DNA from: Pocillopora damicornis
Taxonomy: Eukaryota
Assembly (NCBI RefSeq): GCF_003704095.1
Contig: NW_020843386.1
Coordinates: 186,001-249,948 of the forward strand
Reading direction: 5' to 3'
DNA length: 63,948 nucleotides
A program made the position numbers. Positions 36,001 to 45,804 of this stretch are shown here, piece by piece. Numbering within the stretch: position 1 is the stretch's first letter; every line of letters starts with the position of its first letter.

Positions 36001-39000
36001 AATAAAGCGTGCAAAAATGAATGTTTCAGCTTTATAAGGTAGTAGTTAAATCTCGAGAGGTATGTGTTTAAAGCAATTTTTTTTTTTTTTTATGGCAACG
36101 TCACTCATTTAAGATTTTTCTGTCAAAGAAAAGCTGGTTCCTGCTGCCGTTCGTCATTAGTCAAGTCATATTACTAAGAAGCTCTGTTCAATTTTTTGGA
36201 ACAAGAGAATTCTCAACTGGTACACAAAGCAGTCAGAAAGATTTTTAAAACGCTAGGGTTGATGGANNNNNNNNNNNNNNNNNNNNNNNNNNNNNNNNNN
36301 NNNNNNNNNNNNNNNNNNNNNNNNNNNNNNNNNNNNNNNNNNNNNNNNNNNNNNNNNNNNNNNNNNGTTTTAATACTCGCTGAATACGTTGGCTCTTGAC
36401 TTTTACGTTGTCACAGTAAACCGTTACGTGGTTGAAAAACTGATCGATCTTCATTTGTGTCTGGAAGTAAAACAACATGAACTTATTAGGTATATGCAAA
36501 CATGTTGTACGCCACGGGATCTTTGAAATAATAGCCTAGAATAGTTGAAATACACAAAAGAGGTAAAACATAGAAAAAGAATCAACTAATATGGTAGATT
36601 ATAACGTATATTGTATACACATCATTCAGCCTCCGGTTGCGATATTTATTGAGTATCTCCCTATCTGATAGGAGAACAAGAAAAGGCTTTCAGGAATGAA
36701 GAGGATATAAAAGAAGTAACATCTGTCAGTTAGAGTTCTGACTATCTCAGCAAAGTTTAAGTTAGACCGAGATTTCAAACAAAAATTGGACCTCGAGGTT
36801 ACCGTTTTTGATAAAATTATCAAAGTAAATAGACATTTTTTTTCGTAATGTTCGTGAGAAACTTTCTCGACATTGCTCAGGACAAAAAACGTTTGGATAA
36901 AACTTTTTTCTCAACGGGATCTAGTTATCAACGCGATCACGCGGTATTTGTAAATAACGATAACAGCCAGCCTAATGTCTCCAGATCGAAAAAATACGAA
37001 CCCTTTCCCTGGAAAAGCTTTTAGCCCACTTAACAGCGGCGCCGCAGGACCGCGCCATTCAGAACATGATAACACTGGCCTAAGATTAGAGTTCATTTAA
37101 GCTCTGTAGAAATTGTTAATTTAATGGGTTAGGGTAAGGGTTAGGGTAAGGGTTAGGGTTAGGAGTTTTTGGTTTTTTTCAGGTTTGCCTTGCACTTCGA
37201 TCAAGTGCAACCCAAGTGTTGGATAATTCTAACACTTTCTTCACGAAAAATAAACACCAAGTTAAATCTTTCATACTTAGTTAGGTGCCAACCACTTTTC
37301 AGGAAATCGGAAACAGGGACGTAACTTCGTTCCCGCGTGCAATAGCGAGAAGTCGCGCAAAGAAAAACAAGATTACAAAAGTACATAATTCGTCGGGTAA
37401 AGTCTTGAAATCAGTGTGCACCAAGAATTACCATTACTCTCGCTTAAGACTAACATTCCTGCCTCTAACTTACCTTTTTTTCACTGAGTCGCTTGATCAA
37501 AGGATTTAGAACCTCGTTTGTCTTGGCTTCAGTCCAGCCAAGGATTTTGAAAGCAAATGTGAGAATGTTAAGGAGTTATTAGTGATGCTTATCTCCTTGT
37601 GTTATCAACATATTACGAAGCAAGCGGACAACGAGAGTACCGAGTGTTGTGGTTCTCGTTCAAGAACAGGAAGCGTACGAAAACGCACATATGTATATAA
37701 CAAAGTACAAAGAACACAACTAACTAAAAAAAAACAAAGTCACACTACCAATGAATAATTATTAGATGCCCATTTTTGTATATGGTGGCCCTAGGTACTA
37801 GTACCGTGATAACCGCTAGCCGGAATCTAGGCAATATCACGACACAGAGAATAATTAATTACAGGACAAGTCTCCATGCATCCTGGTAAAGGAAATTCAA
37901 ATTTTGAAAAAAATACAATTATGCATGACAATTTATTTTGCAACAGTTGCATGTTGTCCTTAAAGGACATGTTGCATGGAATGTTCCTGATTCAAGTAAG
38001 GCCTTTAAAGATACAAAAATACTGATAAGGTTAACTTGGAAAGGATATGATTTAAGGAACTCCAGGTCTGGATGTTTCCATTCAAAATCCCCTGTTTGTT
38101 TCTCTACCGCCGGATTGCTATAAGCGTCATAAACTGCTTTAGATGGAAAGTCACTTGGCAGCACCACACCTCTCTACAAAACAAAAAAGGCAGAGAGAAA
38201 CAATTGATAACCCACAATAGGACTTGAATTATCTATTTTAGTTCTAAGTTAGCATCGAAATATTCACTGGCACGATACTTGAGCAGGTTTCACTGGTTAA
38301 TCACCCTAATAATGTCCACAACATGGGCTAGTTAAATTGAGCTTCTTACAAGACGCTTCCTAATTCTGCCTTCGTGGGGATCCCTCGGGCCTTTTTGGGC
38401 TTCGTCATGCCAGCATCTAAAGAATTGACGCAGATAAAATGCCATTAGATACCCACAAACACAAAATAACACGATTACGATGATCAGGACGAAATCACGA
38501 CCAAAAATTTCATGATGATCAGATATGATTATCTATGTGAACCTCGAAAAGCTTCGCTGTGGGTTGAAATTCAAATTTACCTCGATCAATGAGGACTGTG
38601 GACATTACAGTAGTAATAAAAATTAATTTTTACATCTATCCCCCGTAGTGTTGACTTGGTCTTAAACTGAACGAACTAGTTATTAAATCAAGCATCAATC
38701 CCACAATAACCTACCTAAACTGCTCAAGACCCTCGAAATCTTTAATAGAAAACTCGTGAAGAATCTCCACGGCATTAACTCCTCCAAACCCTGCAAAATA
38801 AAAATCCATAAAACAACTTGTTAGTTGAGTTAGTTAGTTGAAGTCCCAACCGAGTTATGTTCCAACCGAGAAAAGAAAATCTTAAATTTCTTTGGGGCAC
38901 ATACTCTGACCTCGAACAAGCTCCTCTCCCACATTTAATGAAGTCTTCCGTGAGTAGGAAATTCTGCTTATAACTTCTCCGACGGTTTGAGTCGAGCTGA

Positions 39001-45000: not shown

Positions 45001-45804
45001 ACAGAACTAGAGGTGCATAAGCTTATATATTTTGCCTTAAATGGGATCTAAAGACAGCAAGGATACCAACTCCGATAGTCTTGTTCTGAAGGGTCTCTAT
45101 TGTAACAGGCTTTCCTGCCGGTTTTATTAATTCCCACAATCCTTTCACTCCCATCTCGATTCGCTGATGCCCCCAACACGAACTCCCTTGTTTATATCGA
45201 GATTTTGTGGCCGCTGGATTCAAACATAAAGTAATTATTCATGGAACTACGATAGATGTTTCGGTACGTTTTCTCCTGAGGCGATTTGGGATCTCGGTTT
45301 GATCGCGCTAAAGTAATGGCACCGCGAAAATGTACACGAGGATGGAAGCTTACGCGAAATGAAATAGAAGTACTCTGACCTTGTTAATAAACAACACGAT
45401 TTAACAAGTTAATTACTTGCTATGACTGTCACGCTTCTTGGCAAGCTATTAACCTGACAATCCCTAATAGCTGCTTTTAGCCATTGTTTTTCAGAGGGTC
45501 TCGTACGTAAAATGTTGATTTTTTTGGGCGCTTAGTAAGCACATCTTGTCTTTCCTGTTTGCCGTGGAAAGTTCCTTGTTGCAGCGTTTAGATCAACCCT
45601 GATGAAGGCACTAGAAAGACGTTGGGTCTATGAGTTGTAACTTCTTCGGTTACATTCATTAAATCTGTTAACCAGAGTAGTATCAATTATTGTTATTAAT
45701 ACCCAGTCCCCAGCATTGCATCTTTGTGAAAAGATTACATGAAGAATCTACCAAGTCACACTATGACCGCTGAACTAAGGATGATGATGATAATAATAAT
45801 AATG

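What the first reader, a model, noticed from the sequence alone, without database searches (positions are those of the whole stretch)
36367..45154. 'Mini-XPG': catalytically intact XPG-like nuclease almost lacking the spacer
The 13 traced exons total about 490 codons before the gap, versus 1186 aa for human XPG. The N-to-I spacer is only ~130-150 aa instead of ~600+, and the introns there are too small and repeat-filled to hide the rest. All acidic active-site motifs (VD, FDG, EAEAQ, DDSD, GSDY), the basic K..RR helix and the PIP box are retained. Established: the XPG spacer mediates TFIIH binding and bubble-substrate specificity. Inference: a divergent XPG paralogue with FEN1-like or NER-independent activity, interesting in a UV-exposed animal.
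Basis: partly seen in the sequence, partly recalled or inferred. Interest (0 to 1): 0.65.

Follow-up and report, generated by a model that had tools for sequence, protein, structure and literature searches.

The report
Short-spacer XPG-like repair nuclease gene
This is a real, intact gene for an XPG-type DNA-repair nuclease that lacks most of the long linker its relatives use to dock onto the repair machinery; it is probably a fast-evolving extra copy in a coral-like animal, and its job is unknown.

Summary
On the minus strand, 13 exons (45154 down to the N run at 36366) give 1462 nt, or 487 codons. Pfam finds XPG_N and XPG_I. The best solved relatives are human ERCC5/XPG and yeast Rad2, far ahead of GEN1, FEN1 and EXO1. 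All seven catalytic carboxylates, the basic arch helix and a PIP box are present. Only 156 codons separate the N exons from the I exon. Human residues 129-729 have no counterpart. Four intron-less database proteins, 95-96% identical to the window, show the same exon joins and the same short spacer. So the short spacer is not an assembly artefact. Seven named cnidarians have long ERCC5 proteins (867-1291 aa), so a short spacer is not the cnidarian norm. In trees the gene groups with scleractinian ERCC5 (100/99) on a branch six to twelve times longer. It still keeps 47 of 48 universally invariant residues. Best reading: a fast-evolving, lineage-restricted ERCC5 paralogue that keeps nuclease and PCNA-binding features but has lost the TFIIH-docking parts. 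I could not check whether the same genome holds a full-length ERCC5. A decaying duplicate remains a serious rival.

The parts
45067..45154 (-). Exon 1 (88 nt): start codon, MGVKGLWELIKPAGKPVTIETLQNKTIGV, plus the first base of the Asp codon that matches human D30
   Evidence: Pfam XPG_N, E=1.3e-5. Coordinates and phase. The join to E2 is seen in P0001/P0003.
44198..44373 (-). Exon 2 (176 nt): rest of the XPG_N domain, with FVFDG (matches human D77) and the K that matches human K84
   Evidence: Pfam XPG_N, E=4e-14. Best PDB match is human XPG, 4e-17, with residues 30-90 aligned.
43559..43674 (-). Exon 3 (116 nt): basic arch/gateway helix AARRDQRFKAVHKSKSVAEKMLKNKL...; 13 K/R against 5 D/E
   Evidence: The same residues in P0003 align to human 89-128, which include the XPD-contact residues 108-115.
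42830..42931 (-). Exon 4 (102 nt): spacer remnant; skipped in P0003
   Evidence: 26 of 30 residues identical to P0001, P0002 and P0288. MAFFT places its halves against canonical coral residues about 129-145 and 223-239; the D1-box invariants are not kept.
41853..41994 (-). Exon 5 (142 nt): spacer remnant with 6 D/E against 6 K/R; PVEPK stands where canonical corals have PVEWQ
41452..41559 (-). Exon 6 (108 nt): second arch helix (...ARQNRRAATVTPEMYIDCQ); skipped in P0001
   Evidence: The same residues in P0003 align to human 736-771 within the 730-1019 stretch, overlapping alpha6 (750-779).
40386..40599 (-). Exon 7 (214 nt): XPG_I core with EAEAQ and DDSD (match human E789, E791, D810, D812)
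   Evidence: Pfam XPG_I, E=4.1e-20. Human ERCC5 2.8e-19, Rad2 2e-17, GEN1 9e-10, FEN1 about 1e-7, EXO1 3e-4.
39382..39450 (-). Exon 8 (69 nt): LDRSSLICLAFITGSDYTDGLK (GSDY matches human D861)
   Evidence: 22 of 22 residues identical to P0001, P0002 and P0003.
38715..38790 (-). Exon 9 (76 nt): helix-two-turn-helix region, FGGVNAVEILHEF...
38350..38416 (-). Exon 10 (67 nt): CWHDEAQKGPRDPHEGRIRKRL; skipped in P0002, which then shifts frame
   Evidence: (100% identical to P0003).
38049..38173 (-). Exon 11 (125 nt): RGVVLPSDFPSKAVYDAYSNPAVEKQTGDFEWKHPDLEFLK
37559..38048 (-). Intron 11 (490 nt), U12-type AT-AC: donor ATATCCTTTC, branch-site TCCTTAAC 6 nt upstream of the terminal AC
   Evidence: No AG acceptor keeps the frame open. 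This is the only ATATCCTTT in the window, and one of two TCCTTAAC-N(5-12)-AC sites. The join ...FLK-S-FAFK... is seen in P0001 and P0003.
37474..37558 (-). Exon 12 (85 nt): FAFKILGWTEAKTNEVLNPLIKRLSEKK
36367..36460 (-). Exon 13 (94 nt, open at its 3' end): PIP box QMKIDQFF, then ...KVKSQRIQRVLK running into the N run
   Evidence: The same residues in P0003 align to human residues about 988-1019.
36267..36366 (.). Assembly gap (100 N) that hides the 3' end of the coding sequence; not filled
   Evidence: No match to the C-terminal 71 residues of P0003 elsewhere in the window at E<1.

Best explanation
The region holds an intact, spliced gene of the XPG/ERCC5 (Rad2) subfamily. I read it as a lineage-restricted paralogue of the hexacoral, most likely scleractinian, ERCC5 gene.

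Origin (inferred). It arose by DNA-level duplication, because it keeps 12 introns, one of them U12-type. It then lost about 530 residues of the spacer, including the D1/D2 boxes and the acidic p62-binding segments. Judging from the near-identical protein P0003, it also lost about 165 residues of the C-terminal tail. Since then it has evolved six to twelve times faster than its canonical relatives.

Mechanism (inferred from conserved residues and from published work on human XPG). The N and I halves fold into one metal-dependent active site with seven carboxylates. Two basic arch helices (exons 2/3 and 6) and a helix-two-turn-helix (exons 8/9) hold a single-strand/double-strand DNA junction. 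A PIP box (exon 13) tethers the enzyme to PCNA. Without the spacer it should still cut 5' flaps and splayed arms. It should cut bubbles poorly and should not be held in the TFIIH pre-incision complex. It therefore probably acts outside core nucleotide excision repair, which a separate full-length ERCC5 would carry out.

Shown: gene structure, family, intact catalytic and PIP motifs, short spacer, intron-less relatives, tree position, conservation pattern.

Inferred: paralogy, activity, partners.
For: - Domains and family: Pfam XPG_N and XPG_I. Exons 2 and 7 match human ERCC5 at 4e-17 and 2.8e-19, against FEN1 at about 1e-6 to 1e-7.
- Gene structure: 13 exons, 487 codons, open frame, all junction phases consistent.
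- Intron-less relatives: four database proteins from short contigs (P0001-P0003 from 2.3-2.7 kb; P0288) are 95.4-96.2% identical to the window exons. They confirm the joins and the short spacer.
- Extent of the loss: P0003 residues 24-151 align to human 1-128 and residues 191-475 to human 730-1019. Nothing matches human 129-729.
- Long forms are the norm: named canonical cnidarian ERCC5 proteins are Montipora foliosa 1210, Acropora millepora 1214, Oculina patagonica 1210, Porites harrisoni 1291, Dendronephthya 875, Paramuricea 867 and Hydra 1054 aa.
- Tree: the mini form plus four scleractinian ERCC5 proteins form a clade with support 100/99. The mini stem is 1.62 changes per column against 0.13-0.27 for canonical end branches. 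On core columns only, support is 96 and the stem is 0.83. Forcing canonical anthozoans together without the mini is rejected (p-AU 0.0086).
- Constraint: 47 of the 48 covered columns that are invariant in 23 canonical XPGs are unchanged in the window exons, although only 190 of 322 scleractinian-invariant columns are kept.
- Rarity: N-to-I distance is 147 aa against a median of 663 in 319 held proteins. Among the best 150 of 9018 library hits, the only protein under 665 aa is a fragment of this same gene.
- Literature: the spacer is dispensable for flap cutting but needed for NER and efficient bubble cutting (PMC1888826). The p62 and XPD contacts are mapped in PMC12873601. The seven carboxylates are listed in PMC7515719.
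Against: - No second, full-length ERCC5 from the same organism was seen, because no genome or named proteome of the source could be searched.
- The tree holds no sea anemone, zoanthid, corallimorph or black coral. The gene sits as sister to the four scleractinians with weak support (86/48). It could therefore be the sole, fast-evolving orthologue of another hexacoral lineage.
- All 4 intron-less relatives deviate in exon content. P0003 lacks E4, P0001 lacks E6, P0002 lacks E10 and shifts frame, and P0288 ends in an alternative exon. None carries the full set. This fits sloppy splicing of a decaying gene.
- The long branch could reflect relaxed constraint. dN/dS could not be computed because no nucleotide sequence of the relatives was available.
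- The AU group was named after the tree was seen, and a long branch is involved.
- No biochemical or expression data exist.
- The 3' end of the gene is hidden by the gap.
Confidence: 0.5

Rival explanations
1. It is a decaying duplicate: an ERCC5 copy that lost its spacer and tail, is still transcribed, is spliced sloppily, and is drifting towards a pseudogene without a maintained function.
For: - All 4 intron-less relatives have aberrant exon content, and two are truncated.
- The stem branch is 1.62 against 0.13-0.27.
- Only 190 of 322 scleractinian-invariant columns are kept.
- No annotated orthologue appears among named hits.
- The D1-box invariants and the Trp of PVEWQ are lost.
Against: - The frame is open over all 13 exons, and all 12 splice junctions are intact, including the rarer U12 signals.
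- 47 of 48 universally invariant residues, all seven carboxylates and the PIP box are kept despite about 50% divergence.
- The spacer-remnant exon E4 differs more from the relatives (26/30 identical) than core exons do (E1 29/29, E8 22/22, E7 67-68/70).
Confidence: 0.25
2. It is the sole XPG orthologue of a fast-evolving, non-scleractinian hexacoral lineage that shortened its spacer. In that case it is not a paralogue.
For: - The gene is sister to, not nested within, the four scleractinian ERCC5 proteins (86/48; 87).
- No other hexacoral order is in the tree.
- No second copy was seen in the 64-kb window.
- Spacer length varies among XPGs: 301-333 aa in a tick, a myxozoan and a nematode.
- An unnamed, unrelated short form exists (P0132, 89 aa between N and I).
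Against: - All seven named cnidarian ERCC5 proteins have 562-636 aa between N and I.
- Losing every mapped p62 motif and the D1/D2 boxes in the only NER 3' nuclease would be unexpected, given PMC12873601 and PMC1888826.
- The rate is six- to twelve-fold higher than in the sister clade.
- Poorly conserved tail segments still resemble the Oculina and Porites tails.
Confidence: 0.2
3. It is an assembly or annotation artefact: the spacer exons exist but were collapsed, lie in a gap, or belong to a different scaffold.
For: The window has 13 N runs, and one of them truncates this gene at its 3' end.
Against: - There is no N run between exon 1 and exon 13.
- Intron-less relatives join E2-E3-(E4)-E5-E6-E7 directly.
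- Phases are consistent.
Confidence: 0.03

Closest known systems
Human XPG / ERCC5 (1186 aa; PDB 9pd3-9pd5 full length, 6tur/6tux/6vbh nuclease core)
   Same: - Best solved relative (4.7e-101 to P0003; exons 2 and 7 at 4e-17 and 2.8e-19).
- Same seven carboxylates, arch helices, H2TH region and PIP box.
- ERCC5 is listed as carrying a U12-type intron in human and mouse (PMC1557818), and the window gene has one too.
   Different: - Human residues 129-729 have no counterpart. That stretch holds the three acidic p62-PH motifs, R138 and R168, and the D1/D2 boxes.
- The spacer remnants are neutral or basic rather than acidic.
- F113 of the XPD-contact helix is Lys here.
- The C-terminal tail is short in P0003 and hidden by the gap in the window.
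Canonical scleractinian ERCC5 (Acropora millepora 1214 aa, Montipora foliosa 1210, Oculina patagonica 1210, Porites harrisoni 1291)
   Same: - Nearest clade in the trees (100/99).
- Shared lineage-typical stretches such as DxSLLLNQSVKGMR, AARxxRFKA, ICxAFITGSDYT, TQMKI and the KKR-x-x-S-x-E-x-N tail.
   Different: - Only 48-52% identity, where the canonical proteins share 79-80%.
- About 460-490 aa shorter between N and I.
- PVEWQ has become PVEPK.
- About 165 residues of tail are absent in P0003.
Engineered spacer-deleted XPG (published deletion mutants and the 351-356-residue N+I crystallisation constructs)
   Same: The architecture is the same: N and I halves joined by a short linker that keeps the arch helices. 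Published deletions keep flap cutting but lose NER and efficient bubble cutting (PMC1888826, passages read; PMC7515719).
   Different: The window gene is a natural gene. It keeps about 73 residues of diverged spacer, the region after the I domain and the PIP box. Its activity is untested.
FEN1
   Same: Same superfamily fold and active site, a compact protein, and a C-terminal PIP box.
   Different: - Much weaker similarity (about 1e-7 against 1e-19 for exon 7).
- FEN1-like proteins in the held set have about 35 aa between the N and I blocks, against 147 here.
- The 3'-flap pocket and acid block typical of FEN1 were not examined.
P0132, an unnamed 479-aa XPG-like protein from a public assembled contig
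   Same: It has XPG_N and XPG_I with only 89 aa between them, an XPG-type region after the I domain and a PIP-like QTTIESYF motif.
   Different: It is only 34% identical to P0003. It does not group with the window gene, sitting instead as an unresolved long branch among metazoan XPGs. Its organism is unknown. It looks like an independent shortening.

Membership tests
XPG/ERCC5 (Rad2) subfamily of the FEN1/Rad2 structure-specific nucleases | Split nuclease domain: XPG_N and XPG_I | tested here: met
   Pfam XPG_N in E1 (1.3e-5) and E2 (4e-14); XPG_I in E7 (4.1e-20), all above the curated cut-offs.
XPG/ERCC5 (Rad2) subfamily of the FEN1/Rad2 structure-specific nucleases | Seven conserved active-site carboxylates (human D30, D77, E789, E791, D810, D812, D861; PMC7515719) | tested here: met
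   All seven are present in the window exons: the E1/E2 split codon D, FVFDG, EAEAQ, DDSD and GSDY.
XPG/ERCC5 (Rad2) subfamily of the FEN1/Rad2 structure-specific nucleases | Closer to ERCC5/Rad2 than to FEN1, GEN1 or EXO1, and placed inside the ERCC5 clade | tested here: met
   PDB ranking. The trees place it with scleractinian ERCC5 (100/99; 96; AU test).
XPG/ERCC5 (Rad2) subfamily of the FEN1/Rad2 structure-specific nucleases | Long (about 600 aa) acidic spacer between N and I that carries the TFIIH (p62-PH) binding motifs and the D1/D2 boxes | tested here: not met
   - 156 codons between E2 and E7.
- Human 129-729 is unmatched.
- N-to-I distance is 147 aa, against 562-636 in seven named cnidarians and a median of 663 in 319 proteins.
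- Spacer exons have 13 D/E against 22 K/R.
- The D1-box invariants are not kept.
XPG/ERCC5 (Rad2) subfamily of the FEN1/Rad2 structure-specific nucleases | XPD-contacting gateway helix (human K108, L109, L110, K111, F113, L114, K115; PMC12873601) | tested here: inconclusive
   The aligned residues in E3 are K M L K. K L R. Six of the seven are identical or similar, and F113 is Lys. Binding was not tested.
XPG/ERCC5 (Rad2) subfamily of the FEN1/Rad2 structure-specific nucleases | PCNA-interacting PIP box after the I region | tested here: met
   QMKIDQFF in E13 aligns to the human ...QLRIDSFF.... The consensus Q-x-x-[ILM]-x-x-[FY]-[FY] is recalled. That XPG has a PIP box comes from PMC8888383. 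Binding was not tested.
XPG/ERCC5 (Rad2) subfamily of the FEN1/Rad2 structure-specific nucleases | Long disordered C-terminal tail with nuclear localisation signals and XPB/p52 contacts | tested here: inconclusive
   The window sequence stops at the N run. The near-identical P0003 ends about 71 residues after the point where the window breaks off, at the position of Oculina residue 1046 of 1210. Whether P0003 ends at a true stop could not be checked.
XPG/ERCC5 (Rad2) subfamily of the FEN1/Rad2 structure-specific nucleases | 3' incision in nucleotide excision repair as part of the TFIIH complex | not testable with these tools
   This needs biochemistry or genetics.
FEN1 proper | Compact helical arch between N and I, and closest similarity to FEN1 | tested here: not met
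   The N-to-I distance is 147 aa, against about 35 in the FEN1-like proteins of the held set. FEN1 E-values are about 12 orders of magnitude weaker than ERCC5 for exon 7.
GEN1 | Closest similarity to GEN1, with a chromodomain after the nuclease core | tested here: not met
   GEN1 scores 9e-10 against 2.8e-19 for ERCC5 on exon 7. The ten exon-bearing frames scanned (E1-E9 and E11) gave only XPG_N, XPG_I and XPG_I_2 at E below 0.01. The region after the I domain aligns to ERCC5.

The most novel reading that the evidence does not exclude
Corals, or a subgroup of them, maintain under selection a natural 'spacer-less XPG'. This would be a second ERCC5-derived nuclease that kept the active site, gateway helices and PCNA tether but shed every TFIIH-p62 docking element. 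It would have been re-purposed as a PCNA-coupled flap, R-loop or replication-stress nuclease acting outside nucleotide excision repair. It would be nature's own version of the engineered spacer-deletion mutants, and a handle on what the XPG core does without TFIIH.
Probability: 0.3. Interest if true: 0.6.

Novelty: new variant of a known kind. Interest (0 to 1): 0.42.

Why it matters
The XPG spacer is regarded as the feature that turns a FEN1-type nuclease into the TFIIH-bound 3' nuclease of excision repair. If this natural gene works without a spacer, it separates the core nuclease and PCNA functions of XPG from its TFIIH functions in a living animal. It could be compared directly with published human deletion mutants. 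It would also add a lineage-specific DNA-repair gene to animals that live under strong light. If it is instead a decaying duplicate, it is an ordinary by-product of gene duplication.

Tried and rejected
- **Hidden spacer exons.** tblastn of two canonical coral ERCC5 proteins against the whole window found none.
- **Second XPG copy in the window.** The only candidate is a 48-residue XPG_I-like stretch with two stops at 59175-59318 (E=0.058). It has no DNA similarity to the gene. I treat it as chance or a very old relic.
- **GEN1, FEN1 or EXO1 identity.** Rejected on E-values.
- **Retrocopy origin.** Rejected because 12 introns are kept.
- **Identifying the source organism.** The Atlas could not read new sequences. 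The unnamed high-scoring hits P0006, P0013, P0021 and P0030 proved equally distant from all animals, at about 30-42%, so they gave no hexacoral outgroup.
- **Structure prediction of P0003.** There was no fold search.
- **Complex prediction.** Not attempted, because no PCNA or TFIIH subunit of the source organism was available.
- **Literature.** Four full-text searches (and the malformed) found no paper on a short-spacer XPG in cnidarians.
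Full report
**What is there**

The gene lies on the minus strand. The start codon is at 45154, and the reading frame runs into the 100-N run at 36267-36366, which is the only N run inside the gene.

I traced 13 exons from stop-to-stop frames and splice signals. They total 1462 nt, or 487 codons. Every junction keeps the phase, and no split codon is a stop. Eleven introns are GT-AG.

Intron 11 (38048-37559) is different, because no AG acceptor keeps the frame open there:
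- The exon ends just before ATATCCTTTC.
- The next exon starts after ...TCCTTAACATTCTCAC.
- These are the U12-type AT-AC donor, branch site and acceptor (consensus recalled).
- Each motif alone is expected about once in a window of this size. Even so, the single ATATCCTTT in the window, and one of the two TCCTTAAC-N-AC sites, sit exactly at these two exon edges.

I built and searched no joined model. Where a full-length protein was needed, I used the database protein P0003 as a stand-in.

**Family**

Pfam finds XPG_N in exons 1 and 2 and XPG_I in exon 7, all above the curated cut-offs.

| Query | Human ERCC5/XPG | Yeast Rad2 | GEN1 | FEN1 | EXO1 |
|---|---|---|---|---|---|
| Exon 7 | 2.8e-19 | 2e-17 | 9e-10 | about 1e-7 | 3e-4 |
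| Exon 2 | 4e-17 | 5e-11 | no hit | about 1e-6 | no hit |

The seven carboxylates that PMC7515719 lists for human XPG are D30, D77, E789, E791, D810, D812 and D861 (passages read). All seven are present in the window:
- the E1/E2 split-codon Asp;
- FVFDG;
- EAEAQ;
- DDSD;
- GSDY.

The basic residues of arch helix alpha4 (K...RR) and a PIP-type motif, QMKIDQFF, are also present.

**The short spacer is real**

Only 156 codons (exons 3-6) lie between the N exons and the I exon.

A search with exon 7 alone found three proteins, P0001, P0002 and P0003, that are 94-97% identical to it. They come from assembled contigs of 2.3-2.7 kb. The library scan added a fourth, P0288. Over all shared exons these four are 95.4-96.2% identical to the window.

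They read straight across the exon joins I had inferred, including the U12 join. The gene spans at least 8.8 kb in the window, so contigs of this size must be intron-less. The simplest reading is that they are assembled RNA. This is an inference; I did not look at where they came from. None of them carries a long spacer.

Further points against a hidden spacer:
- P0003 aligns to human ERCC5 as residues 24-151 to human 1-128, and 191-475 to human 730-1019. Human 129-729 has no counterpart.
- tblastn of the Oculina and Montipora ERCC5 proteins against the whole window found nothing at E<1 for their spacers, apart from one weak hit (E=0.31, Oculina only) on exon 5.
- There is no N run between exons 1 and 13.

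An assembly artefact is therefore very unlikely.

**It is not the cnidarian norm**

| Named cnidarian ERCC5 | Length (aa) |
|---|---|
| Montipora foliosa | 1210 |
| Acropora millepora | 1214 |
| Oculina patagonica | 1210 |
| Porites harrisoni | 1291 |
| Dendronephthya gigantea | 875 |
| Paramuricea clavata | 867 |
| Hydra vulgaris | 1054 |

I built N and I profile blocks from canonical sequences and measured the N-to-I distance in all held proteins:
- These seven cnidarians: 562-636 aa.
- P0002, which has all of exons 3-6: 147 aa.
- Median of the 319 (of 404 held) proteins that have both blocks: 663 aa.
- Under 200 aa: 8 of 319. Three are the short gene itself. Three are FEN1- or SEND1-like. 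Two are unnamed short forms, P0132 and P0174.
- The next shortest named XPGs have 301-333 aa (a tick, a myxozoan and a nematode).

This held set is shaped by the length windows of my searches. In the library scan, which has no word filter, 9018 proteins matched. Among the best 150, the only one under 665 aa is P0288, a fragment of this same gene.

**Where it came from**

A maximum-likelihood tree of 25 proteins and 799 columns used P0003 and P0001 as stand-ins for the window gene.
- It puts them with the four scleractinian ERCC5 proteins (ultrafast bootstrap 100, SH-aLRT 99), as sister to those four (86/48).
- Their stem is 1.62 changes per column, against 0.13-0.27 for the canonical end branches.
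- A second tree on 497 well-filled core columns gives the same grouping (96) with a stem of 0.83.
- Forcing the six canonical anthozoans together without the short gene is rejected (log-likelihood 15.45 lower, p-AU 0.0086). I named that group after seeing the tree, and a long branch is involved.

The alignment also shows lineage-typical stretches shared with scleractinian ERCC5 outside the catalytic core, including small islands of the spacer and part of the tail.

The gene keeps 12 introns, so it is not a retrocopy. ERCC5 is listed as holding a U12-type intron in human (AT-AT) and mouse (AT-AC) (PMC1557818, one table passage read). Whether that intron sits at the same position as intron 11 was not checked.

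Together this points to a DNA-level duplicate of the hexacoral ERCC5 gene that lost most of its spacer.

The weak point is that I could not name the source organism, search its genome or add other hexacoral orders. The gene could still be the sole, fast-evolving orthologue of a non-scleractinian hexacoral.

**Is it still under constraint?**

| Measure on the window exons, added one by one as fragments | Result |
|---|---|
| Identity to the four scleractinian ERCC5 proteins | 48-52% |
| Identity of those proteins to each other, same columns | 79-80% |
| Scleractinian-invariant columns kept | 190 of 322 |
| Columns invariant in all 23 canonical XPGs | 51 |
| Of those, covered by window exons | 48 |
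| Of those covered, unchanged | 47 (the exception is a Thr-to-Ser change) |

One of the three uncovered invariant columns is the Gly of the E8/E9 split codon, which reads GGG. The other two are D1-box positions that the short gene has lost.

Against its near-identical relatives, the spacer-remnant exon 4 differs more (26 of 30 identical) than core exons do (29/29, 22/22, 67-68/70). The numbers are small.

This pattern fits a nuclease that is still maintained.

The evidence the other way is that all four intron-less relatives deviate in exon content:
- P0003 lacks exon 4.
- P0001 lacks exon 6, which encodes an arch helix.
- P0002 lacks exon 10 and shifts frame.
- P0288 ends in an alternative exon inside intron 6.

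No relative shows the complete exon set. Without nucleotide sequences of the relatives I could not compute dN/dS.

**What was lost and what was kept**

PMC12873601 (abstract and passages read) maps these contacts in human XPG:
- three acidic p62-PH-binding segments, at 150-160, 357-368 and 654-657;
- an XPD-contacting gateway helix, at 108-115;
- R124, R138 and R168.

All three acidic segments, together with R138 and R168, fall in the part that has no counterpart here.

The remaining spacer exons are not acidic. Exon 3 has 5 D/E against 13 K/R, exon 4 has 2 against 3, and exon 5 has 6 against 6. The human spacer has a pI of 4.5 (PMC1888826).

The gateway helix is kept (EKMLKNKLR against human EKLLKTFLK), with F113 replaced by Lys. 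The Trp of the PVEWQ motif, shared by the four scleractinian proteins just before the I region, is Pro here.

In P0003 the protein ends about 165 residues before the canonical coral C-terminus. In the window this part lies beyond the gap, and I did not examine it. Supplementary figure S1A of PMC12873601 (cross-species alignment of the acidic motifs) could bear on motif conservation. Supplements were closed.

**Most likely mechanism**

Published work shows that the XPG spacer is dispensable for flap cutting but is needed for NER and for efficient bubble cutting (PMC1888826, abstract and passages). [quoted passage not shown]

From this, I expect the product to be a metal-dependent nuclease specific for 5' flaps and junctions, tethered to PCNA. 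It should not be held in the TFIIH pre-incision complex. It therefore probably works outside core excision repair. This is inference; nothing here tests activity or binding.

I put about 0.5 on the whole reading: real gene, paralogue, still functional, uncoupled from TFIIH. I put 0.25 on a decaying duplicate, 0.2 on a sole orthologue of another hexacoral lineage, and 0.03 on an artefact.

**Novelty**

Four full-text searches (one search was malformed) found no paper on a short-spacer XPG in cnidarians. The Hydra repair review only lists a Hydra XPG cDNA (PMC8117345, passages). No named protein in the searches resembles the short gene closely. Those searches are word-limited, so this is weak evidence of absence.

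An unnamed 479-aa protein, P0132, shows that XPG shortening has happened at least once more, independently.

I rate the gene a new variant of a known kind, of moderate interest.

**What stayed unchecked**
- The source organism.
- The presence of a full-length ERCC5 in the same genome.
- The 3' end of the gene, behind the N run.
- Cluster look-ups and the protein Atlas.
- The closed metagenome and viral collections.

Noticed in passing
window 37559-38048 (-): Intron 11 of the gene is a U12-type AT-AC intron (donor ATATCCTTTC, branch TCCTTAAC, acceptor AC). ERCC5 is listed as a U12-intron gene in human and mouse (PMC1557818). Whether the position is the same was not checked.
   Followed up: partly
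window 59175-59318 (-): A 48-residue stretch resembles the XPG_I core (L.KLFG..Y...P ... SD.FLF.SKR) but has two in-frame stops. tblastn gives E=0.058 and there is no DNA similarity to the gene. It is either chance or a very old relic of another copy.
   Followed up: partly
window 40976-41023 (-), inside intron 6: The database fragment P0288 ends with LIDCGKTCLCSGSVLH. That sequence is encoded here, just downstream of a 101-nt tandem duplication (41073-41274). It looks like an alternative, truncating exon.
   Followed up: partly
window 45220-45222 (-), upstream of the start codon: The relatives P0001 and P0003 start 23 residues earlier, at an in-frame ATG (MNPAATKSRYKQ...). The window has TTG at that codon, so here only the conserved MGVKG start is available. 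An N-terminal extension would probably be harmful in this enzyme family; PMC7515719 notes that an extra N-terminal residue blocks cutting.
   Followed up: no
window about 1-35400 and 46800-55300, both strands: The gene sits in a large tandem array of repeated exon types. These are PAN/apple-like ORFs (for example 34959-35366 and 47748-48203), C-type lectin ORFs (for example 33671-34084 and 48438-48875) and a third recurring ORF type with no Pfam match (for example 51843-52433, 10211-10729 and 16353-17105). Only five ORFs were scanned with Pfam.
   Followed up: partly
window 56025-57080 (+) and 62194-63249 (+): A single-exon ORF with a PI-PLC X domain (Pfam 2.6e-7), and a second, similar copy interrupted by N runs.
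   Followed up: partly
window 37126-37163: A telomere-like (TTAGGG/TTAGGGTAAGGG) run of about six units inside intron 12.
   Followed up: no
window 42390-42563: An inverted repeat with 73-nt arms (79% complementary, 28 nt apart) in intron 4. It resembles a small foldback element.
   Followed up: no
window 20496-20568 (+) and 31667-31729 (+): Two tRNA matches in Rfam (45.5 and 30.7 bits). The second is only just above the gathering score.
   Followed up: no
database protein P0132 (not in the window): An unnamed 479-aa XPG-like protein with only 89 aa between the N and I blocks and a PIP-like motif. It is unrelated to the window gene in the tree. Short-spacer XPG forms may have arisen more than once.
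   Followed up: partly
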